Shown here piece by piece: positions 3,940-53,959 of a stretch of 59,035 nucleotides of DNA. The stretch is from a virus. Taxonomy: Duplodnaviria; Caudoviricetes. Made by a program: the position numbers and the translations under genes. The DNA is taken from positions 1 through 59,035 of IMG/VR virus record IMGVR_UViG_3300015245_000041; one strand, given 5' to 3'. Under the pieces are notes generated by a model. It had not been told where the DNA came from. It did no database searches and saw nothing but the letters and a program-made list of their open reading frames with translations. The number at the start of each line of letters is the position of its first letter. Positions within the stretch are counted from its first letter, which is position 1.

Positions 3940-4374
3940 ATGTTGATGCCCATAGCTGAAGGTGCTGTAGCTACTGGTAGTATTTGGGGAGTAATCGGTC
4001 TTATTGTTACGGGATTGATCGGATTAGGAACAACCCTGGTCCAAGATCGTCGAAGACGACGAGAGGAACTCGAAGATAAGGGTTCCATACAGCCCAAGCA
4101 TGCGGAACGAAGTTCTGAAAGGATTGCTGCAACAACTGCTAGTAATGAAATCTTGGGATACTTAACTGAGCATATCATAACTCCTTTACGTAATGACTTA
4201 GAAGAAGCTCGGAAGAAAATTGAAGAACTTCAGACTCAAAATGCCCGTAAAGATGAACAGCTTAACGAAGCTCATGCTCTGGTGAGAGATTTGAATGTTA
4301 AGATTATCTCGTTTCAGGCTCAGGTTGCTATCTTGTTAGAGCAACTAGGAGGTGTTAGAGATGACCGAGGATGA
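3940..4374 (+). CDS. Membrane-anchored coiled-coil protein (lysis cassette)
   Basis: N-terminal TM, Arg run, heptad C-terminus. Confidence 0.7.
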   Translation: MLMPIAEGAVATGSIWGVIGLIVTGLIGLGTTLVQDRRRRREELEDKGSIQPKHAERSSERIAATTASNEILGYLTEHIITPLRNDLEEARKKIEELQTQNARKDEQLNEAHALVRDLNVKIISFQAQVAILLEQLGGVRDDRG

Positions 4375-6836: not shown

Positions 6837-7828
6837 CAGAATCTGCCTATGGCATTCATGATCATTCTCAACTCAAGCTAGGTAAACAACCACCGGATCC
6901 AACTCGAATGGCTCGAGCTATCAAGATGGCATCGTTCATCGATGTCAAGGCAGTAACTCAGCAAATCGAATATCACCCCCCCACCGATGATAACTATCTG
7001 CAGTACCTAGATGCCAACAAGTCATTTGGCTTGTATGGCAATAATAACTTCGGGGTCTGCGGCCCAACAATGATAGCTAATGGTCGACGACTTAGTAGTT
7101 TTCTCTCAGGTTCATATGATGAGCCCACACAAGACGATGTCTTTGATCTCTATCGTCGTTCTGGGAACCCCAATTTTGACCCTATTACTGGTGCCGATGA
7201 CAAGGGTGTCAACAACCAGACGATGCTTGAGCAAGCACTCAAAACTGGGTTTGGGAAAGATATTGAGGGCAATGAGCGAGAGCTTGTAGCTTTTGCTCAG
7301 GTCGATCACGGTAACCTAAATGAACTTCGAGTCGCAATCTATAAGTTCGATTACGTTTGTGTGGGGGTTGTACTTGATACTGCTCAACAGGATCAGTCTG
7401 ATGGCAGTAATCCCACGTGGAGTTATGTTGATTCATCCACTTGGGGTGGTCACGATATTCTTGTAGCTAAGTATGATTCAGATAGTGCAGTTTGTGTATC
7501 ATGGGCTTTGTTTATTGATATGCTAGATAGCTTTATGTCTCGACAAATGGATGAGGCTTGGGTTGTTATCTGGCGAGATCAGTATGACAAACTGACTGAT
7601 GGGGAGAAAGTAGCATTAGCTCGTGAGTTTGAAGTCGCTACCGGCAAACCCTTTCCCCTCATTCAACCCGATCCCGAGCCCAGTCCAACTCCCTTTACTA
7701 ATCTGGATTTGGAATTGGTTAAAAAAATTGCTGCATCTGGATTCTTAGGGCAGAGTCATCATAAGCCAGCTAATGATGTGGCTCATGCTCTCATGCAATG
7801 GATGATTGCTAAGGGATATGTAAGTTGA
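6833..7828 (+). CDS. Papain-like cysteine peptidase (possible second lysin)
   Basis: NNNFGVC Cys, DKG, WGGH His, VSW. Confidence 0.65.
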   Translation: MTESAYGIHDHSQLKLGKQPPDPTRMARAIKMASFIDVKAVTQQIEYHPPTDDNYLQYLDANKSFGLYGNNNFGVCGPTMIANGRRLSSFLSGSYDEPTQDDVFDLYRRSGNPNFDPITGADDKGVNNQTMLEQALKTGFGKDIEGNERELVAFAQVDHGNLNELRVAIYKFDYVCVGVVLDTAQQDQSDGSNPTWSYVDSSTWGGHDILVAKYDSDSAVCVSWALFIDMLDSFMSRQMDEAWVVIWRDQYDKLTDGEKVALAREFEVATGKPFPLIQPDPEPSPTPFTNLDLELVKKIAASGFLGQSHHKPANDVAHALMQWMIAKGYVS

Positions 7829-7853
7829 CATAGGTTGAGAGATGCTATAGAAT
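7825..7853 (+). promoter_or_regulatory. Sigma70-type promoter, leaderless start
   Basis: TTGACA-N17-TAGAAT, ATG at 7861. Confidence 0.75.
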
Positions 7854-7860
7854 GATGGGT

Positions 7861-8127
7861 ATGACCAAGCTCAGAGAAAAATTCAAAGAAACAATGCAGG
7901 CAGAAGCTAAGAAGCTTGATGCCAAACATACTAAGAAGGCACTGAGACGAGTACTGCCCCACGTTGAGTGGATCTACACCAAGGCCCGCGGACCTTTTGA
8001 AACTCGACTTTTGCTCAGTGCTGGTTGGGAACCAGTTAGTCAATCTGGTGGCGACCTCATGGATAAGATCCTGGGTAGTCAAACCACCGTCACAACTTTG
8101 CTAAGGAAACGAAATCCCAATCTTTAG
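7861..8127 (+). CDS. Hypothetical protein (GWEP.S.S family, like 31139..31510)
   Basis: Own promoter and terminator. Confidence 0.65.
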   Translation: MTKLREKFKETMQAEAKKLDAKHTKKALRRVLPHVEWIYTKARGPFETRLLLSAGWEPVSQSGGDLMDKILGSQTTVTTLLRKRNPNL

Positions 8128-8128
8128 C

Positions 8129-8175
8129 AAAAACAGCAAAGTCTCCTAGGCCACGAGCTTAGGAGGTTTTGTTGT
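8129..8175. terminator. Bidirectional intrinsic terminator
   Basis: CTCCTAGGC/GCTTAGGAG stem flanked by A-rich and T-rich tracts, between convergent arms. Confidence 0.75.
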
Positions 8176-8318
8176 GTGTGAGGGATTATCGATCGAGCGA
8201 TCGCGCCTTATGATGCAATCACGGGATGCCTCAAGAAGAGCTCTAATTTAATCCCTAAAAGGGTAAGATATCTGATTGCATGTGATTTTATGCAGGCGAT
8301 TAGCCATAACTTCAGAGA

Positions 8319-8615
8319 TTATTTGAGGAATTCTTCTATATACCAGAGAGCCTCAGCACTGGAGCAAATTACTACTGCTTTTCCCCCCGCGGCTCGAATC
8401 TGAGTATGCACCATTTGTTGCTTAGGAGTGACGTTATCCCGTTCGTCAGGCATCTTAGTTTCAAACCCTACAAAATAACCATCCACACAAGCTATGATGT
8501 CGGGGAGTCCAGCAGTCATAGTAGGACCACCATGAACTTTGAAACAAAAATAGCCCTGTGCTCTAAGGTCTTTCATGATTTTACGACTAAGTTTAGATTC
8601 AGGTTGATTACCCAT
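8319..8615 (-). CDS. VRR-NUC nuclease (resolvase-like)
   Basis: ESKL...KVHG..AGLPDI..GFETK...QQ motif. Confidence 0.9.
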   Translation of the reverse strand: MGNQPESKLSRKIMKDLRAQGYFCFKVHGGPTMTAGLPDIIACVDGYFVGFETKMPDERDNVTPKQQMVHTQIRAAGGKAVVICSSAEALWYIEEFLK

Positions 8616-8628
8616 GATAACTCCTATA

Positions 8629-8699
8629 CATGCCAGGGAGGCGATGCACCAAGCCGCCTTGACCGAGGAGAAGAATGATGCACCGCCTCAACCTGCATG
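8629..8699 (-). ncRNA. Candidate antisense hairpin RNA with anti-(GACCGAGGAG) loop
   Basis: 14-bp stem with two G-U pairs only on the minus strand, outer stem, 24-nt loop UUCUUCUCCUCGGUCAAGGCGGCU; begins at the predicted TSS. Confidence 0.65.
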
Positions 8700-8703
8700 G
8701 TAG

Positions 8704-8733
8704 ATGATATATCGTAAGATGAATGATTGTCAA
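8704..8733 (-). promoter_or_regulatory. Sigma70-type promoter for hairpin RNA/VRR-NUC
   Basis: TTGACA-N18-TATCAT. Confidence 0.75.
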
Positions 8734-8735
8734 TG

Positions 8736-8777
8736 AAACAAACCAAGAGACCCCCAGAGTTATCTGGGAGCCCTCGG
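8736..8777 (-). terminator. Intrinsic terminator of the recombination operon
   Basis: CCGAGGGCTCCCAGA-TAAC-TCTGGGGGTCTCTTGG followed by TTTGTTT. Confidence 0.75.
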
Positions 8778-8787
8778 CCGATATCAC

Positions 8788-9093
8788 TTAGAGATCGATG
8801 CGCGCCATCAAAGCCTGCATAGTGTGGATCAATCCCTGAGCTTGGTTCTTGAGCTCCTGAAGTCGACCTGCTAATGAAGACTCCATAGCTTCCTGAGGTT
8901 CTGTTGCTCTCTTGACCTCAGGCTGTACTCCTAGGATAGGAGCCAATCGACCCTCAAGCTCAAGGATAGTCTTATGTAGCCTCTCGTGGGTAAGGCCAAT
9001 CTCATCGAGACGACCATCGAGCTTGCGTGTGCCGGTACTAAGTCGGTCCGAGTCGTCATCATCGAAACGAACTGCTTGACCTTGAGCACTCAT
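8788..9093 (-). CDS. Hypothetical coiled-coil protein
   Basis: TAATG coupling to upstream gene. Confidence 0.75.
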   Translation of the reverse strand: MSAQGQAVRFDDDDSDRLSTGTRKLDGRLDEIGLTHERLHKTILELEGRLAPILGVQPEVKRATEPQEAMESSLAGRLQELKNQAQGLIHTMQALMARIDL

Positions 9094-9818
9094 TACAGAT
9101 CCTCTATGTCGAGTTCTTCGAGCTCTTCGTCGGTTACCTTGGCCTTGCGCTTCTTACGCTTCGGCGGAGCGGGCTCTTCGTCTTCTTCATCCTCATCTTC
9201 ATCAGGCTCGGGCTCAGGAGCCTTCTTCTTGCGTCGTTTCTTTGCTACCGGAGGCGGCTCCTCCTCGTCTTCGTCCTCATCATCTTCGTCTTCATCCTCC
9301 TCTGGCTCTGGGGCAGCTTTACGCTTTACTCGGCGAGCTGGTGGAGCCTCTTCTTCCTCGTCTTCATCCTCTTCGTCCTCATCGTCAGTTGACTCAGTAT
9401 CCTCCATATCGGAGGGGGGGAAGATGCTGGCGATGGTGGACTTCATCTTGCCTTCGTACTCATCATCTTGGAGACTGATGGCGACAAGCTTTCCTACTAC
9501 CTTCTCCGGGTCAAGCTTGATTCGTTTCTTCGGAACATTGATACCACAAGACTGAAGAAGGTTGCGGATCTTCCAGAGTTGATTGGCATCCAGCTTGCAG
9601 TAGTAAGGGTACTTGGCAAGAGGATGAAGTTCAGGAGAAAGAATGAAGAGCCATTGAAAATCGCCCTTATTATCTCCACCCTTAACTTCCGCATCCTGAA
9701 CCGAAACGATGCGGGCAAGGTAGTCACCCTCCGCAACTCGTTTGGGGTTGATGCCACTTCTGGTAGCATCTTTAACATTGGTCATGTCAAGAGTTTTGAC
9801 AGATGCCTTTGTTGCCAT
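9093..9818 (-). CDS. ssDNA-binding protein (DUF669-like) with charged tail
   Basis: EGDYLARIVSV...LWK...VGK.V...DEYEG; follows Sak4-like ATPase. Confidence 0.7.
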   Translation of the reverse strand: MATKASVKTLDMTNVKDATRSGINPKRVAEGDYLARIVSVQDAEVKGGDNKGDFQWLFILSPELHPLAKYPYYCKLDANQLWKIRNLLQSCGINVPKKRIKLDPEKVVGKLVAISLQDDEYEGKMKSTIASIFPPSDMEDTESTDDEDEEDEDEEEEAPPARRVKRKAAPEPEEDEDEDDEDEDEEEPPPVAKKRRKKKAPEPEPDEDEDEEDEEPAPPKRKKRKAKVTDEELEELDIEDL

Positions 9819-11692: not shown

Positions 11693-11713
11693 CAATTCTC
11701 CTCGGTCAAGATC

Positions 11714-11743
11714 ATCTTATATGCTAGGAAACTTTCTTGTCAA
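11714..11743 (-). promoter_or_regulatory. Sigma70-type promoter followed by GACCGAGGAG RBS motif
   Basis: TTGACA-N18-TAAGAT. Confidence 0.75.
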
Positions 11744-18836: not shown

Positions 18837-18866
18837 ATTGTCCTCCTCGGTCAGGGTAATACATGG

Positions 18867-21974: not shown

Positions 21975-22577
21975 TTACTCGTCGTCGTCCAGCTCGAGCT
22001 CATCTTCGTCATCGTCATCTTCGACGACCGGAGCAGGCTTTGCCTTCTTCTTTTTGGTGGCCTTGACTCCCTGCTTGGCCTTCTCGGCTCGAATCTTCTC
22101 GTTGCGCTCCTTCAGCGCGTCGAGCTTCTCCTTCTTATCCTGGTCCAACTCCCCAGCGTTGAAAGCCTTGATGATGGCCTTGACCTCAGGATCCTTCGGT
22201 CCGCTCCAGTCATACCGAGCGCGGTTCCCGGCAACAATCTCCCGGTCGACTCGGCCCTTACCATCCCGGGCCATGCGACGAATCAGGTTGCGCAGTCCGC
22301 GGGCGTCAACCTTCTTGCCCGTGGTCTTGATCAGGTACTGCACCAGATCGCTGACTCCGAAGGTGACCTCCTGTTGAGCCCCGGTCTTCTTCTTGGTCTT
22401 CGACTTGGGAGCGACCTCTTCGACCTCGTCCTCTTCGAGCTCCTCGAGATCCTCGTCCTCGTCGTCCTCAACTTCGTCCTCTTCGACCTCGTCATCTACT
22501 TCGAGCTCTTCGACCTCAGCTTCGACCTTCTTGGCTGGAGCCTTCTTGGCTGGCCGGCGTTTCGTAGCAGTCGCCAC
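21975..22577 (-). CDS. Putative DNA-binding protein with basic/acidic tails
   Basis: LR.LIR...RARYDW core; GAAGGAG RBS; GC3-rich codons. Confidence 0.8.
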   Translation of the reverse strand: MATATKRRPAKKAPAKKVEAEVEELEVDDEVEEDEVEDDEDEDLEELEEDEVEEVAPKSKTKKKTGAQQEVTFGVSDLVQYLIKTTGKKVDARGLRNLIRRMARDGKGRVDREIVAGNRARYDWSGPKDPEVKAIIKAFNAGELDQDKKEKLDALKERNEKIRAEKAKQGVKATKKKKAKPAPVVEDDDDEDELELDDDE

Positions 22578-22659
22578 GATATCTCCTTCACTTCGAACCG
22601 GTCACTTAGTTCTTTTACTAAGATCCTCGGTCATGCCCCTTATTGGGCGGTGTACTACT

Positions 22660-22688
22660 AATCTATCAAATGCAGTGGGGGATGTCAA
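22660..22688 (-). promoter_or_regulatory. Sigma70-type promoter
   Basis: TTGACA-N17-TAGATT. Confidence 0.75.
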
Positions 22689-23749: not shown

Positions 23750-23927
23750 TGTTTTCCCTCCTCATTCTCTTGTAGTGCTCTATCCAACGGATTAAAGCCC
23801 TCGCCTCTTTAGGTTCCAAGGTTATCTTACCGAACTGAGAACCAAACTTTACTGCGAAGGGTTCATGTTTGTTGAGTAAAGCTGTTAACTCCTCGGTAGT
23901 TAGCTCAGTCAAGAATACCTTAGCCAT
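23739..23927 (-). CDS. Hypothetical protein
   Basis: GAGGGGAG RBS. Confidence 0.6.
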   Translation of the reverse strand: MAKVFLTELTTEELTALLNKHEPFAVKFGSQFGKITLEPKEARALIRWIEHYKRMRRENNDF

Positions 23928-24141
23928 CAGATCTCCCCTCAATCACGCAGTCAAAAACGGATGGGTAATATTCACTTCTATTGTACGGGCTCCCGGGAAC
24001 TTGAACTTCGATCCTTCCACCTGAGGGTGGTTCAGGATTTTTACTGATCTGAATAAATACATAGTCATTACCTCTGAAATCTATGATCTTCTCTCCAGAC
24101 TTGACTACAGTTCCATCAGCACGAATCAGAGCATAAATCAT
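23920..24141 (-). CDS. Hypothetical protein
   Basis: GAGG RBS; ATGA overlap; YYPSVF motif. Confidence 0.65.
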   Translation of the reverse strand: MIYALIRADGTVVKSGEKIIDFRGNDYVFIQISKNPEPPSGGRIEVQVPGSPYNRSEYYPSVFDCVIEGRSDG

Positions 24142-25614: not shown

Positions 25615-25966
25615 ACCATCTCCTCGGTAGGATGGATAGTAAGGACCCCAGGGCCCATCAGCAGTATCGGGGGGACCTGCGTCAAGACCCTGGGGTCGTC
25701 ATGAAACCCTCTAACCTTCGAGTGTAAACCTCTCGCGGAAGAGATTTTACCGGTGCCCCAAGGTTGAGGGGATTAAATTGTATACCCTGAGTAGTCATTC
25801 GGGATCCGGGACCAGAACCCCCATCTATCATCAGCAAAGAAGTCACTACCCAATCTTCTTAGCTTGTGTGGGATAGGCGCGGGGTCTTAGTTCTTTATAA
25901 ACCGCCCTAGCCCTGCAATTGAGGAAGTGGGTTATCGGCAAGCCGCGTGACCCCCCTATATCCTCG

Positions 25967-26461: not shown

Positions 26462-26499
26462 AATTGCCTCCTCGGTAGCGGCGATTGATCGATGCAGTT

Positions 26500-26582: not shown

Positions 26583-26614
26583 TGATATGATCATTACTCC
26601 AACGACCGAGGAGG
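26583..26614 (+). promoter_or_regulatory. Extended -10 promoter plus GACCGAGGAGG RBS motif (rightward)
   Basis: TGA-TATGAT at 26583-26591; motif at 26604-26614. Confidence 0.5.
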
Positions 26615-36354: not shown

Positions 36355-36619
36355 CTTGGACCTCCTGTTGGACTAGCGTCGGGTTCGATTCGTTGGTGTG
36401 GGCGGTGATTTCCCACGTGATGCCGAGCTCTTGAGAGAGCTTTTGGATAGCCCAGAATGTGAGGATAGTGTGCCCGCGCAGCAATAATTGTGCGCCCCTG
36501 CCTGACAATCCTAGGGTCTTCCCCAGGTCTTCCGTTGACTTGCCTTGCAGTGATGCGTGACGCCTAATGGCTTCTAGGAAAACTGCCTTGACGTCGTCGG
36601 CTACAAACTGACTATTCAT
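36341..36619 (-). CDS. XRE-type HTH protein
   Basis: STEDLGKTLGLS...LLRG...LT...I.KL...LG; AAGGAG RBS. Confidence 0.7.
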   Translation of the reverse strand: MNSQFVADDVKAVFLEAIRRHASLQGKSTEDLGKTLGLSGRGAQLLLRGHTILTFWAIQKLSQELGITWEITAHTNESNPTLVQQEVQGGVS

Positions 36620-37556: not shown

Positions 37557-37889
37557 TTATGAGTCTTCATAGGATCGGTTACGAGCTCGGCGTAGGGCTT
37601 GCTCACGACGAACTGTCTGAACACTGTCGATATTTTCGGGGCTACCGGGCATGTCATGTAACTCGCAGGGTCTAGCACCATCCCAGCCGTGATTGCGACA
37701 GTATACATCCATGTTACCTACGTATCCATTTTCATTCTCGTAACAAGAACAGCAATAACAATTATCTCGATGCTCGATGGTAACTACGGGTATGTAAATA
37801 GTTGTAGTAGTTACTCCCGGGATCTCGTGAGTATGTACTAGATTACCATTCTTATCTTTACGGTAGTTTTCATTGGCATAAATACCCAT
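37557..37889 (-). CDS. Cys/His-rich hypothetical protein
   Basis: TGACCGAGGAGGAG RBS and promoter. Confidence 0.7.
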   Translation of the reverse strand: MGIYANENYRKDKNGNLVHTHEIPGVTTTTIYIPVVTIEHRDNCYCCSCYENENGYVGNMDVYCRNHGWDGARPCELHDMPGSPENIDSVQTVRREQALRRARNRSYEDS

Positions 37890-37919
37890 GTAACTCCTCC
37901 TCGGTCAGTGATTGGGTTA

Positions 37920-37949
37920 ATCTTATATGCTAGATGAGTGCGGTGTCAA
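37920..37949 (-). promoter_or_regulatory. Sigma70-type promoter
   Basis: TTGACA-N18-TAAGAT; shares CTAGCATATAAGAT with the 11714 promoter. Confidence 0.8.
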
Positions 37950-46184: not shown

Positions 46185-47800
46185 CAACTCCTGCTACGGC
46201 ATTCGGTCCTTATTCTTCAGTAAAACCCTATATGAATGAGATGCCTCAATGGTATCCCGAAGAGGATCGAGAGCGTGTTGGGTCTTATCTGAAGTATGAT
46301 GAGTTATATTGGAATGATGATCTACAGTTCCGTTTGAGGATTCTGGTTGGTGAGCAACCGCTATATATCCCAAATGCTAGGACTATTGTAGATACTACTT
46401 CTCACTATTTACTCAAAGGACTTCAGATTACGGTAGAAGATCCGGAGAAACATGCAAACCTTAAAAATGCTTTAGATAAATTACTGAAGCGGGAGATGTT
46501 CTATAGCAGATTCCACATCGCCAAACACTCTGGTGTGGCTAGAGGTGATTTTGTCTTCCATATGACAGCTGATCCGAGTAAGCCTGCGGGTAAACGAATT
46601 TCTCTCAACTCCATTGATCCCTGTCTAGTTATTCCTGTTTACGATGATGATGACTTAGATAAATTGCTCAAGGTTCATTTAGTAGATATCTACTTAGATG
46701 CCAATGACCCAAATACTCAGAAGATCAAGAAACTCACCTATGAGTATACTATGGTTGGTAAAGAAAAACGGGTTCAGCGATCTGAGGGTATTTACAGGTT
46801 AGATGAGAAGTGGTGGGGACAGAAACCTACATTGGATAAGATAACTATTCCAGTAGGTCTTCTACCTGCAGCTATCACCACCATTCCCATTTACTGGTTT
46901 AAGAACCTCGAGTGGCAGGGACAACAGTATGGATCATCGGAGCTACGAGGGATTGAAAAGCTTCTCCAAGGAGTATCGCAGGCAGCTACTGACCAGGAGA
47001 TCTCTTTAGCGCTCGAGGGTCTAGGAGTATATGCCACAGATGGTGGTGCTCCGATCAATAACTCAGGTGAGGAAGTTGAGTGGGAGATTGCACCCGGCAA
47101 GGTAATGATGGTACCTTCCGGATCATACTTCAGACGTGTAGAGGGTGTAGGTAGTGTTAAACCTTCTATGGATCATATCAACTATGTAGAGAGTAAACTT
47201 CGTGAAGCCACGGGTCTTAGCGATGTTGCTCTTGGTCGAGTTGATGTACAGACTGCTCAGAGTGGAATTGCTCTAGCTATCAAGTTTATGCCCACACTAG
47301 CTAAGATCGAGGAAAGGGATCAAGCTGGTGTGGAGAAGACTCGTCAGTTATTTTTTGACTGGCAAATTTGGCATACTGTCTATGAGGGTGATTCTTTGGA
47401 TGGTAATGTTGAACCCGTCATCGGTCAAAAACTCCCTGATGATCGTGTTGCTGCGGTCAACGAGCTGAATAACATGCTCGACCGAGGAGTCATCTCTAAA
47501 AAGTATTATAGGGATGAGATGCAGAAGTTGGGGTATTCTTTCCCGGATGACATCGAGGCTGAAATTGATGCTGAGAATAAAAAGGAAGCTGAGATCAAAG
47601 CTTCGGCAGCTCCTTCTGGTCTTCAGCAAAATGCCGTAGATGCTGCTAATGGTAACATACCTCCCCCTCCCGGTCAGGGTGGTAACGGGACATTGCCCCC
47701 TAATGGAAACCGTAGTAACAATAAAAATAAGACCAACGAGAGCAAGGGTACTGAGACAGGTCAGTCTCTCTCTCGTCAATCGCGGGGCGGGAAGCCCTAG
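46181..47800 (+). CDS. Portal protein
   Basis: Follows TerL; YGSSEL, SG.AL motifs. Confidence 0.88.
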   Translation: MTTPATAFGPYSSVKPYMNEMPQWYPEEDRERVGSYLKYDELYWNDDLQFRLRILVGEQPLYIPNARTIVDTTSHYLLKGLQITVEDPEKHANLKNALDKLLKREMFYSRFHIAKHSGVARGDFVFHMTADPSKPAGKRISLNSIDPCLVIPVYDDDDLDKLLKVHLVDIYLDANDPNTQKIKKLTYEYTMVGKEKRVQRSEGIYRLDEKWWGQKPTLDKITIPVGLLPAAITTIPIYWFKNLEWQGQQYGSSELRGIEKLLQGVSQAATDQEISLALEGLGVYATDGGAPINNSGEEVEWEIAPGKVMMVPSGSYFRRVEGVGSVKPSMDHINYVESKLREATGLSDVALGRVDVQTAQSGIALAIKFMPTLAKIEERDQAGVEKTRQLFFDWQIWHTVYEGDSLDGNVEPVIGQKLPDDRVAAVNELNNMLDRGVISKKYYRDEMQKLGYSFPDDIEAEIDAENKKEAEIKASAAPSGLQQNAVDAANGNIPPPPGQGGNGTLPPNGNRSNNKNKTNESKGTETGQSLSRQSRGGKP

Positions 47801-53482: not shown

Positions 53483-53959
53483 ATGGTAACAGCTAAGAAA
53501 AGTGTAGATAGTAAAAAAACTACTACGGTTGCAGCTTGGAAGTCTGGATTTGATCCCTTCTTAGAGCTCCCCAGTGGTAAAGTTCTTAAGGTTAGAGCGG
53601 CAGTTGGTTTTCAGTCTTTGCTGAAAGCCGGGGTTATCCCCAATTCCCTTATGGGTATTGTCCAGTCAGCTATGGATAATGGCAAAGAACCTGATCTTTC
53701 CAGCTTTACTGGTGATACTAGTAAGATTAATCAGATGCTCGTCATGATCGATAGCATTGTTATGTTCATGGCTGTTGAGCCTGAAATCCATGAAATCCCC
53801 CCTGATGATGAAGAACGAAACTCGGACTTGTTGTATGTGGATGAGGTCGAGGATACTGATAAGATGTTCATCATGCAATGGGCCACGGGGGGTACCCGCG
53901 ACTTGGAGCAGTTTCGTCTCGAGGCTGGATCAGTGTTGGATATTGTACACCGAAGCTAA
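53483..53959 (+). CDS. Tail assembly chaperone (G)
   Basis: LPSG..G.IPN.L...LY.D.V...DK.FI; between tail tube and TMP. Confidence 0.8.
   Translation: MVTAKKSVDSKKTTTVAAWKSGFDPFLELPSGKVLKVRAAVGFQSLLKAGVIPNSLMGIVQSAMDNGKEPDLSSFTGDTSKINQMLVMIDSIVMFMAVEPEIHEIPPDDEERNSDLLYVDEVEDTDKMFIMQWATGGTRDLEQFRLEAGSVLDIVHRS

What the first reader, a model, noticed from the sequence alone, without database searches (positions are those of the whole stretch)
8629..8733. Candidate phage sRNA master switch: a promoted hairpin whose loop is antisense to the shared RBS motif of early operons
Seen: after an intrinsic terminator, TTGACA-N18-TATCAT restarts leftward transcription right at the base of a long hairpin. 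Its 14-bp stem GAGGCGGUGCAUCA/UGGUGCAUCGCCUC has two G-U pairs that would be A-C mismatches on the other strand. The 24-nt loop UUCUUCUCCUCGGUCAAGGCGGCU is complementary to the leaders of Cas4 (15 nt, 11696-11710; about 12 nt if the mRNA starts at the local promoter), gene 37889 (14 nt, one G-U), gene 18836 (13 nt), gene 26622 (11 nt), gene 25614 (10 nt), gene 26461 (10 nt plus GCCGC matching the loop's GCGGC) and the 22577 leader (10 nt). Known analogies: P1 C4 and P4 CI antisense RNAs use single-stranded regions against several targets. Inference: one RNA, co-transcribed with the VRR-NUC resolvase, occludes the first RBS of the recombination, nucleotide/polymerase, primase and accessory operons and shuts them down at the early-to-late transition in a lytic phage.
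Basis: partly seen in the sequence, partly recalled or inferred. Interest (0 to 1): 0.92.

Follow-up and report, generated by a model that had tools for sequence, protein, structure and literature searches.

The report
Phage hairpin RNA mirroring early-gene leaders
An uncultured soil phage and about 35 relatives carry one conserved RNA hairpin whose tip is the mirror image of a private ribosome-binding leader shared by their early operons, so it probably switches those genes' translation down, though no experiment has tested this.

Summary

**In the window.** A terminator-like hairpin is followed by a near-consensus promoter. Then come a 71-nt hairpin (8699..8629, minus strand) and the gene of a 98-aa VRR-NUC/Hjc-like resolvase. 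The hairpin tip is the exact complement of the leader motif UGACCGAGGAG, which lies before seven genes, most of them first behind a promoter-like site.

**In relatives.**
- I found 36 distinct instances, always on the resolvase strand. Each of the 15 whole or partial genome records scanned has one strong copy.
- Stems differ completely but stay paired: 12 of 12 pairs show compensatory changes.
- The loop core CCUCGGUC is nearly invariant.
- The hairpin and the leader motif occur together. Eleven related phage records with no hairpin before the resolvase gene also lack the motif.
- Loop and leaders change together in three lineages: GAGGG/CCCUC, CUGAGG/CCUCAG, and an unrelated CUGGGAAGG/CCUUCCCAG.
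- The motif keeps a fixed distance to start codons, not to promoters.
- G-U pairs favour the transcribed strand.

**Reading.** This is probably an antisense RNA that base-pairs with the early leaders through its loop and blocks their ribosome-binding sites (confidence about 0.55).

**Not shown.** The RNA itself, repression, timing, and whether the hairpin is processed from the resolvase mRNA are all untested.

Rfam has no match. Two full-text searches found no description of such an element. The scan has noted analogous hairpins in other phages before.

The parts
8748..8773 (-). Terminator-like hairpin ending the upstream (Cas4-like to 101-aa ORF) operon
   Evidence: 11 pairs, 6 G-C, tail CTTGGTTTGT. 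Consensus scan only.
8704..8733 (-). Sigma-70-type promoter TTGACA-N18-TATCAT. The predicted start lies about 8697, at the base of the extended hairpin.
   Evidence: 11 of 12 consensus positions. TTGAC lies within 130 nt upstream of the hairpin in 34 of 36 instances. The start site is inferred.
8629..8699 (-). Extended hairpin: outer 8-bp helix plus 14-bp main stem (8689..8676 with 8651..8638)
   Evidence: -38.2 kcal/mol, z -3.0. Covariance model R1 scores 45.5 bits. 12 of 12 pairs show compensatory changes over 24 sequences.
8652..8675 (-). Loop UUCUUCUCCUCGGUCAAGGCGGCU, which holds the anti-leader. CGGUC is predicted unpaired (P 0.99). CCUC is partly paired with AGG.
   Evidence: The core CCUCGGUC is conserved in 31 of 36 instances, with single-base variants in the rest.
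8319..8625 (-). SD AGGAG (8625..8621) and the gene of a 98-aa VRR-NUC/Hjc-like resolvase (ATG 8615). Its own leader lacks the GACCGAGG motif.
   Evidence: Hjc E 0.0021, below the Pfam cut-off; phrog_93 endonuclease 1.2e-19; phrog_5702 Holliday junction resolvase 6.9e-07.
11696..11711 (-). Leader motif UCUUGACCGAGGAGAA before the Cas4-like PD-(D/E)XK nuclease operon. 16 nt complementary to the loop (1 G-U).
   Evidence: (promoter at 11743).
18841..18853 (-). Leader motif UGACCGAGGAGGA before the 87-aa ORF that heads the nucleotide-metabolism/PolA block
22624..22633 (-). Leader motif UGACCGAGGA, 45 nt upstream of the GTG of gene 21975-22577. In relatives the same motif is the SD of the homologous gene.
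25619..25628 (-). Leader motif ACCGAGGAGA before a 63-aa ORF
26467..26476 (-). Leader motif ACCGAGGAGG before a 48-aa ORF. The upstream GCCGC can pair with GCGGC in the loop.
   Evidence: duplex -29.6 kcal/mol.
26604..26614 (+). Leader motif GACCGAGGAGG before the 63-aa ORF that heads the primase/helicase operon
37894..37907 (-). Leader motif UGACCGAGGAGGAG before the 110-aa ORF 37557-37889
   Evidence: promoter at 37949.
23933..23945 (-). Variant leader UGAUUGAGGGGAG before the gene that starts about 23927. It pairs with the loop only through G-U pairs (13 nt, 4 G-U). Membership is uncertain.

Best explanation
The hairpin is a conserved regulatory RNA made by host RNA polymerase as the 5' part of the resolvase transcript. 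A long stem of variable sequence holds up a small open tip, CGGUCA. Next to the tip lies a weakly paired pyrimidine stretch, CUCCUC.

Most genes that lie first behind an early promoter carry a private leader, UGACCGAGGAG. That is an ordinary Shine-Dalgarno GAGGAG with a 5' extension UGACC.

Proposed mechanism (inferred, not shown):
1. The tip pairs first with UGACCG in the leader.
2. Pairing spreads over the Shine-Dalgarno sequence, giving about 10-16 bp.
3. The ribosome is shut out, and the mRNA may be exposed to decay.

One RNA would thus damp the recombination, nucleotide/polymerase, primase and small accessory operons together as it builds up.

What the sequences show: the structure, the complementarity, their co-occurrence and their joint change across relatives.
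For: 1. Structure.
- 36 distinct instances, all on the resolvase-gene strand.
- 12 of 12 stem pairs show changes on both sides.
- 95.1% of cells are paired, against 72.3% in 500 shuffles (0 of 500 reach the observed value) and 40-46% when the partners are slid. That alignment was fitted to the model.
- On the independent MAFFT alignment, 11 of 12 pairs show compensatory changes.

2. One strong copy in each of the 15 whole or partial genome records scanned.

3. Loop and motif.
- The loop core CCUCGGUC is the complement of the leader core GACCGAGG.
- GACCGAGGA occurs 107 times in 14 hairpin-bearing records. The backwards-read control occurs 3 times.

4. Co-occurrence. Eleven related records with no hairpin before the resolvase gene hold 11 copies in 489 kb, against 107 in 682 kb (Mann-Whitney p = 3e-4).

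5. Joint change of loop and leaders.
- G002: loop CCCCUCGG. Seven of 8 leaders read GAGGG, against 66 of 71 GAGGA in the other genomes.
- G015: loop CCUCAGUUGAC. Four promoter-proximal leaders read CUGAGGAGG and one reads CCGAGGAGG.
- G016: an unrelated loop with a 13-nt match to one leader, AAAACUGGGAAGG, 7 nt before an ATG.
- Loop flanks match their own genome's leaders better than other genomes' leaders: 4.03 against 3.24 nt beyond the core, permutation p < 1e-4.
- The base before GACC tracks between loop and leaders (Fisher p = 0.016).

6. The motif acts at the RNA level.
- Its distance to the start codon is fixed, with 7-10 nt between the ACCGAGG core and the ATG in five of the seven window leaders. 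The Cas4-like leader has 4 nt to its TTG (7 to the ATG that follows). The 22633 site lies 45 nt upstream.
- Its distance to the -10 box ranges from 3 to 27 nt.
- All leader copies are sense to their gene.

7. Strand.
- The sense strand folds better than the antisense strand in 22 instances and worse in 13 (Wilcoxon p = 0.024). That set of 37 counted one hairpin twice.
- G-U pairs number 58 on the sense strand and 43 on the antisense strand.
- G016's 17-bp stem has 4 G-U pairs (read).

8. CGGUC is predicted unpaired with P > 0.8 in 25 of 36 instances (mean 0.83). CCUC has a mean of 0.58.

9. TTGAC lies within 130 nt upstream in 34 of 36 instances.
Against: - There are no RNA data. Neither the transcript nor its ends have been seen.
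- No terminator follows the hairpin, so a free small RNA would need processing.
- Its promoter belongs to the same class as the target promoters. A timed early-to-late switch therefore does not follow from the sequence.
- A shared double-stranded DNA site would give the same co-occurrence and the same joint change. Allowing G-U pairs lengthens matches to other genomes' leaders as much as to a genome's own, so wobble gives no extra support.
- The strand asymmetry is modest.
- Joint change in the core rests on single lineages (G002, G015, G016).
- In the energy scan, G-rich non-leader sites score as well as the leaders.
- At least four strong promoter-like sites in the window lack the motif in their leaders.
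- The analogous test in Cluster K mycobacteriophages did not show loop and motif tracking each other.
Confidence: 0.55

Rival explanations
1. The pairing is real but runs the other way, or is not repressive. The abundant early leaders pair with the hairpin in the resolvase mRNA and control resolvase expression, for example by co-degradation. That would keep the junction-cutting nuclease low while early mRNAs are plentiful. Alternatively, pairing might stabilise or activate the leaders.
For: - The hairpin always lies at the 5' end of an mRNA that encodes the resolvase. The gene follows within 42 nt or less in 29 of 36 instances and after one inserted ORF in 7.
- No terminator follows the hairpin.
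- There is one hairpin for many leaders.
- All the complementarity and joint-change evidence fits this reading equally well.
Against: - The hairpin does not cover the resolvase's own SD.
- In 7 of 36 instances another ORF separates the two.
- The paired region covers the SD of the leaders, which is the classic geometry of repression.
- Regulation of one gene would not need a leader motif kept on 4-14 genes per genome.
Confidence: 0.15
2. The motif is a double-stranded DNA operator bound by a phage or host protein. It would resemble the asymmetric stoperators of Cluster A mycobacteriophages, or a protein-bound start-associated sequence. The copy inside the hairpin is just one more site, in the opposite orientation.
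For: - The core is invariant over wide divergence: 47-62% G+C and 45-74% resolvase identity.
- Co-occurrence and joint change are also what a protein with its sites would give.
- Asymmetric sites in one orientation plus a single reversed copy are described for start-associated sequences in Cluster K phages (PMC3203893, passages read).
Against: - The reversed copy always sits at the tip of a long covarying stem. A DNA site does not need that.
- G-U pairs would be A-C mismatches on the other strand (G016).
- Spacing is fixed to start codons, not to promoters.
- All other copies are sense to their gene and double as Shine-Dalgarno sequences.
- No integrase was found, so an immunity repressor is not expected.
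Confidence: 0.12
3. The hairpin acts only in cis on the resolvase mRNA. It could be a 5' stabiliser, an RNase III site or a translational tuner. Its pyrimidine-rich loop would resemble an anti-Shine-Dalgarno sequence for local reasons.
For: - It sits at or near the predicted 5' end.
- Its stems are long (12-20 bp).
- CUCCU in the loop can pair with the resolvase's own AGGAG (read).
Against: - This does not explain the conserved GGUCA part of the loop, which matches the non-SD part (UGACC) of other genes' leaders.
- It does not explain the co-occurrence with the motif.
- It does not explain the joint changes in G002, G015 and G016.
- The resolvase's own leader never carries GACCGAGG.
- By eye I saw no loop-to-downstream covariation in the sequences. 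This was not formally tested.
Confidence: 0.1

Closest known systems
c4 antisense RNA of phages P1/P7 (Rfam family C4). I saw only the title of Citron and Schuster 1992 in the reference list of PMC8546580. The details here are recalled.
   Same: A phage-encoded structured RNA is made at the head of an operon. Its exposed loops pair with complementary sites, including a ribosome-binding region, on phage mRNA and block expression.
   Different: - c4 acts on its own downstream transcript (icd/ant) in an immunity circuit of a temperate phage, and it is processed to 77 nt.
- Here there is one loop, 4-14 dispersed targets per genome, no integrase, and no sequence or model match. Rfam gave no hit at E <= 10 on the window or at E <= 1 on five relatives.
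6C small RNA of high-G+C Gram-positive bacteria (PMC6486639; title and start of abstract seen)
   Same: Hairpin loops rich in C bind several mRNA targets without a chaperone, in the same host phylum that the cultured relatives point to (actinobacteria).
   Different: 6C is a cellular RNA with two C-rich loops and generic G-rich targets. This element is phage-encoded, and its loop matches a private extension (UGACC) beside the Shine-Dalgarno sequence. It did not match any Rfam family.
Start-associated sequences (SAS) of Cluster K mycobacteriophages (PMC3203893; passages read)
   Same: - A 13-bp asymmetric motif containing AGGAG lies 3-7 bp before start codons of a subset of non-structural genes, in 11-19 copies.
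- It occurs in one orientation, plus a single reversed copy in the K1 phages.
- Its function is unknown. The authors leave open an RNA or a protein partner.
   Different: - The sequence is different (GGGATAGGAGCCC).
- In Anaya the reversed copy does lie at the tip of a hairpin in a 385-nt non-coding gap.
- In five other Cluster K phages the loop differs while the SAS stays the same. A loop-SAS link is therefore not supported there, whereas it is supported here.
T4 RegB endoribonuclease (PMC1702504; start of abstract seen)
   Same: A phage-made factor inactivates a class of early mRNAs through their Shine-Dalgarno sequence (GGAG).
   Different: RegB is a protein that cleaves. Here the proposed agent is an RNA that pairs. 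The similarity is in function only.

Membership tests
Rfam C4 antisense RNA (P1/P7 c4) or any other Rfam 15 family | A match to the family's covariance model | tested here: not met
   cmscan of window 8000-9400 at E <= 10 gave no hit on the hairpin. Five relatives' loci at E <= 1 gave 0 hits.
Trans-acting base-pairing regulatory RNA (antisense, loop-mediated) | A conserved secondary structure supported by covariation | tested here: met
   11 of 12 pairs and 12 of 12 pairs, 0 of 500 shuffles.
Trans-acting base-pairing regulatory RNA (antisense, loop-mediated) | An exposed seed complementary to its targets, conserved and changing together with them | tested here: met
   A shared DNA site would give the same joint change.
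Trans-acting base-pairing regulatory RNA (antisense, loop-mediated) | The RNA is expressed and has defined ends | not testable with these tools
   No RNA holder was listed. The promoter is only a consensus match. No terminator follows the hairpin.
Trans-acting base-pairing regulatory RNA (antisense, loop-mediated) | Target expression changes with the RNA and is restored by compensatory mutations | not testable with these tools
   This needs a bench experiment.
Stoperator-like dsDNA operator system (Cluster A mycobacteriophages; PMC9283540, start of abstract seen) | An immunity repressor in a temperate phage, with sites bound as duplex DNA | tested here: inconclusive
   No tyrosine or serine integrase in the complete genome. 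The hairpin context and G-U pairs argue against it. Protein binding cannot be tested here.
Start-associated sequences (Cluster K mycobacteriophages) | The 13-bp consensus GGGATAGGAGCCC 3-7 bp before start codons | tested here: not met
   The window's motif is TGACCGAGGAG. The layout is the same but the sequence and the phage group differ.

The most novel reading that the evidence does not exclude
A whole lineage of lytic actinobacteriophage-like viruses runs a private translation code. Operon-first early genes carry an extended Shine-Dalgarno 'address' (UGACCGAGGAG), and a single phage RNA hairpin reads that address by loop-to-leader pairing to shut the set down together. Address and reader have co-evolved into at least three specificities. 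If the same logic holds for the start-associated sequences of mycobacteriophages and for the analogous hairpins this scan noted in T4-like phages, then RNA-based shut-off of early translation is a general phage strategy that has not been recognised.
Probability: 0.3. Interest if true: 0.9.

Novelty: new variant of a known kind. Interest (0 to 1): 0.78.

Why it matters
Temporal control in phages is usually ascribed to proteins: sigma factors, anti-sigma factors, repressors and nucleases such as T4 RegB. Here one small RNA would address a whole class of early genes through a leader that only the phage uses.

If that holds, three things follow:
- It is an RNA-only regulon switch that can be read from sequence alone.
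- It offers an explanation for 'start-associated' motifs that have had no assigned function since 2011.
- It provides a compact, orthogonal translation-control pair (address plus reader) with natural variants of changed specificity, useful for synthetic biology in actinobacteria.

The closest cultured relatives are actinobacteriophages, so the model can be tested with reporters in standard laboratory hosts.

Tried and rejected
**RNA evidence.** The look-up of sequencing runs listed no RNA holder, only one DNA soil-metagenome holder.

**Near relatives.**
- One search found no near relative in the 'phages' collection by DNA.
- (single protein, viral contigs) gave one weak locus.
- An exact 27-nt pattern gave 0 hits.
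Of the 80 listed loci scanned with the model, 1 held the hairpin (L190, the same contig as L007).

**Cultured phages.**
- The nearest by resolvase protein are Curtobacterium phage Shrew (58%) and Microbacterium phage Huwbert (52%). Both have only a terminator and a promoter before the gene.
- In Gordonia phages Lauer and Pons the genes abut.
- Muddy has no model hit in the 7.6 kb examined.
- The element was therefore not found in any cultured phage examined. The whole collection cannot be searched with the model.

**Cluster K SAS side test.**
- The reversed SAS of Anaya lies at a hairpin tip. The 121-nt fold has z = -0.68.
- In Amgine, Amohnition, Krueger, Unicorn and TClif the loop differs, while GGGATAGGAG stays at 14-16 forward copies in the four of them that were searched (Krueger was not).
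- I rejected this as support.

**Energy scan.** The leaders rank high, but so do G-rich non-leader sites. It does not decide anything.

**Wobble test.** Allowing G-U lengthens own and foreign matches alike, so it does not separate RNA pairing from a DNA site.

**Ideas considered and dropped.**
- A cruciform substrate for the neighbouring resolvase. Against it: the 20-30-nt spacer, the G-U pairs, and an ORF inserted in 7 of 36 instances.
- An intrinsic terminator or attenuator. There is no U tract after the hairpin.
- An extended pairing of the leader with 16S rRNA. This rests only on my recall of the rRNA 3' end and was not tested.
- A pseudoknot between the loop and the resolvase SD. I saw no covariation by eye and did not test it formally.

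**Limits.**
- The records I call hairpin-less were scanned with the model only over their ~5-kb loci, except G017, which was scanned whole (46,206 bases held, estimated 70% complete). A hairpin elsewhere in those genomes is not excluded.
- Literature searches for a description of such an element found none.
- Supplements of PMC3203893 (SAS tables for three phages) were closed and may bear on the reversed-site claim.
Full report
**What the window is.** The window is a complete IMG/VR virus record of 59,035 bp with direct terminal repeats. No tyrosine or serine integrase was found. The nearest cultured relatives, judged by the resolvase protein and by neighbouring genes, are actinobacteriophages of Curtobacterium, Microbacterium, Gordonia and Mycobacterium. 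The host is therefore probably an actinobacterium. I did not test that note.

**Check of the observation.** The minus strand reads as follows:
- the stop of ORF 8788-9093;
- a terminator-like hairpin at 8773..8748;
- TTGACA-N18-TATCAT at 8733..8704, matching 11 of 12 consensus positions;
- a hairpin;
- AGGAG at 8625..8621;
- the ATG at 8615 of a 98-aa protein.

That protein matches Hjc weakly in Pfam (E 0.0021, below the cut-off). It matches PHROG endonuclease and Holliday-junction-resolvase families well.

The hairpin has these parts:
- a main stem of 14 bp with two G-U pairs;
- a nominal loop of 24 nt at 8675..8652;
- an outer helix that extends it to 8699..8629.

It folds at -38.2 kcal/mol with z = -3.0. 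The Cas4-like leader pairs over 16 nt with one G-U, not 15. ACCGAGGAG occurs 9 times against 0.48 expected.

**The leaders.** Seven leader copies are sense to their gene. In five of them 7-10 nt separate the ACCGAGG core from the ATG. The Cas4-like leader has 4 nt to its TTG, or 7 to the ATG that follows. The copy at 22633 lies 45 nt upstream of its start. The distance from the -10 box ranges from 3 to 27 nt. The motif is therefore tied to translation starts, not to promoters.

The genes behind these leaders are:
- the Cas4-like nuclease operon, which ends just before the hairpin;
- the block that runs into the UDG-PolA gene;
- gene 21975-22577;
- two small ORFs;
- the primase/helicase operon;
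- ORF 37557-37889.

At least four strong promoter-like sites (21890, 24580, 32768, 38425) lead into leaders without the motif. The set is therefore a class of early genes, not all of them.

**Relatives.** The resolvase has hundreds of homologues on ~55-62-kb contigs. I fetched 80 viral loci and 79 metagenome loci.

Upstream of the gene many relatives show the same layout. A CTTGAC promoter comes first. Then comes a long hairpin with a completely different stem but the same loop core YCCUCGGUC(A/G). Counting distinct sequences gives 36 instances, all on the strand of the resolvase gene. They include closer kin of the window:
- L243 (66% protein identity), with compensatory stem changes;
- L242 (71%);
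- L241 (99%), whose hairpin is identical.

Covariation of the stem:
- A MAFFT alignment of 15 sequences gives 11 of 12 pairs with compensatory changes.
- A model-fitted alignment of 24 sequences gives 12 of 12. In it 95.1% of cells are paired, against 72.3% in shuffles (0 of 500 reach it) and 40-46% when the partners are slid.

Copy number and position:
- Model R1 finds one strong hit in each of the 15 whole or partial genome records scanned. The antisense strand scores far lower.
- TTGAC lies within 130 nt upstream in 34 of 36 instances.
- The resolvase start follows within 42 nt or less in 29 of 36. In 7, one more ORF lies between.

Rfam 15 has no match on the window or on five relatives.

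**The link between hairpin and leaders.** The same leader motif is found in the relatives, just after -10 boxes and just before start codons. GACCGAGGA occurs 107 times in the 14 other hairpin-bearing records. The backwards-read control occurs 3 times.

Eleven related records show no hairpin before the resolvase gene. Only G017 among them was model-scanned over all the sequence held. These eleven records hold 11 copies in 489 kb, near the control level (Mann-Whitney p = 3e-4).

Loop and leaders also change together:
- **G002.** The loop reads CCCCUCGG and 7 of 8 leaders read GAGGG. In the other genomes 66 of 71 read GAGGA.
- **G015.** The loop reads CCUCAGUUGAC. Four promoter-proximal leaders read CUGAGGAGG, two of them matching the loop over 14 nt, and one keeps CCGAGGAGG (read by eye).
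- **G016.** This is the most distant carrier (45% resolvase identity). Its 17-bp stem has four G-U pairs and holds an unrelated loop, UUUUCCUUCCCAGUUUUUC. One leader matches that loop over 13 nt, 7 nt before an ATG.

Over 15 genomes the loop flanks match their own leaders better than other genomes' leaders. The figures are 4.03 against 3.24 nt beyond the 7-nt core, with permutation p < 1e-4. The base before GACC tracks as well (Fisher p = 0.016 on a broader and noisier site list). Related genomes share history, so these are few independent events.

**RNA or DNA?** Three things point to RNA of the sense strand:
- The reversed copy always sits at the tip of a covarying stem.
- The stems hold G-U pairs that would be A-C on the other strand. 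Over 37 sequences, one of them a duplicate, the sense strand folds better in 22 and worse in 13 (Wilcoxon p = 0.024). G-U pairs number 58 against 43.
- The motif is spaced from start codons, not from promoters.

None of these is proof. Co-occurrence and joint change would also follow from a protein with a duplex site. Allowing wobble does not favour a genome's own leaders over foreign ones.

**Proposed mechanism (inference).** In predicted ensembles CGGUC is unpaired with P > 0.8 in 25 of 36 instances (mean 0.83). The adjacent CCUC is partly paired with a downstream AGG/GGG (mean unpaired 0.58).

So the nominal 24-nt loop is better seen as two parts: a weak inner helix, and a 5-7-nt tip CGGUCA. 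The tip is complementary to UGACCG, the part of the leader that is not Shine-Dalgarno. This gives that conserved extension a role as the first contact. From there pairing can spread over GAGGAG, giving about 10-16 bp in the window. The median over the broad site list is 10.

The predicted start of the Cas4-like mRNA would put the motif at its very 5' end (inferred). Because the paired region covers the Shine-Dalgarno sequence, repression is the most likely outcome.

The hairpin's promoter is of the same host type as those of the targets. Any delay would therefore have to come from accumulation or stability, not from a later promoter class.

**Comparison with what is known.** In how it works, the element resembles three things:
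- the c4 RNA of P1/P7 (recalled; I saw only the paper's title);
- the C-rich-loop 6C RNA of actinobacteria (start of abstract);
- in purpose, T4 RegB, which inactivates early mRNAs at GGAG (start of abstract).

It is not a member of any Rfam family.

The leader motif resembles in layout the start-associated sequences of Cluster K mycobacteriophages. Their function is open, and K1 members have one reversed copy (PMC3203893, passages read). I tested whether that reversed copy behaves like this hairpin:
- In Anaya it does lie at the tip of a hairpin in a conserved non-coding gap.
- In five other Cluster K phages the loop differs while the SAS stays unchanged.

That case stays open and gives no support.

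Two full-text searches found no description of an element like the present one.

Earlier notes of this scan describe analogous anti-leader hairpins in unrelated phages. They are leads, not evidence.

**Verdict.** The element is real, conserved and not previously catalogued. Its reading as an anti-leader regulatory RNA is well supported by comparative sequence evidence but has not been tested at the bench. I rate it a new variant of a known kind (loop-mediated antisense control). Confidence in the trans-repressor mechanism is about 0.55. Confidence that the hairpin and the leader motif are functionally linked is about 0.9.

Noticed in passing
L321:555-600 (Mycobacterium phage Anaya, record 59854-59899): The single reversed start-associated sequence of Anaya lies in the apical loop of a hairpin, inside a 385-nt gap between gp96 and gp97. 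The gap has no annotated gene and is conserved in 182 Cluster K records. In other subclusters the loop differs while the SAS is unchanged.
   Followed up: partly
window 22577-22688 (-): In the leader of gene 21975-22577 the motif lies 45 nt upstream of the GTG. A small hairpin (CUUAGU...ACUAAG) and a separate SD follow it. In relatives the same motif is the SD of the homologous gene, whose product begins MATAT.
   Followed up: partly
L018:2312-2500 and L023:2206-2500; also L266, L274, L284, L309: In 7 of 36 carriers an extra small ORF lies between the hairpin and the resolvase gene. The hairpin thus stays with the promoter rather than with the resolvase start.
   Followed up: no
L012, L020, L025 (about 60-100 nt upstream of the hairpin): One sub-lineage has a second strong hairpin between the promoter and the anti-leader hairpin. 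There the element is not at the 5' end of the transcript.
   Followed up: no
G016 (L030 record) 36530-36560 (+) and the hairpin near 53790-53840 (-): A distant relative has a hairpin in the same position with an unrelated loop. The loop matches a different leader (AAAACUGGGAAGG) over 13 nt, which suggests a changed specificity.
   Followed up: partly
window 7825-7853 (+): A strong promoter-like site (TTGACA-17-TAGAAT) ends at the ATG of ORF 7852-8127, which suggests a leaderless mRNA convergent with the resolvase gene.
   Followed up: no
all carriers, 3-10 nt after the hairpin: A short word YGUAG / YGUGU / UGUAU recurs between the hairpin and the resolvase SD. Its role is unknown. It might be a processing site.
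   Followed up: no
window 23889-23897 (-) and 47481-47489 (+), 4362-4371 (+): Copies of ACCGAGGAG or TGACCGAGGA also lie inside coding sequence. They are probably chance or codon-driven (T-E-E) and are not leaders.
   Followed up: partly
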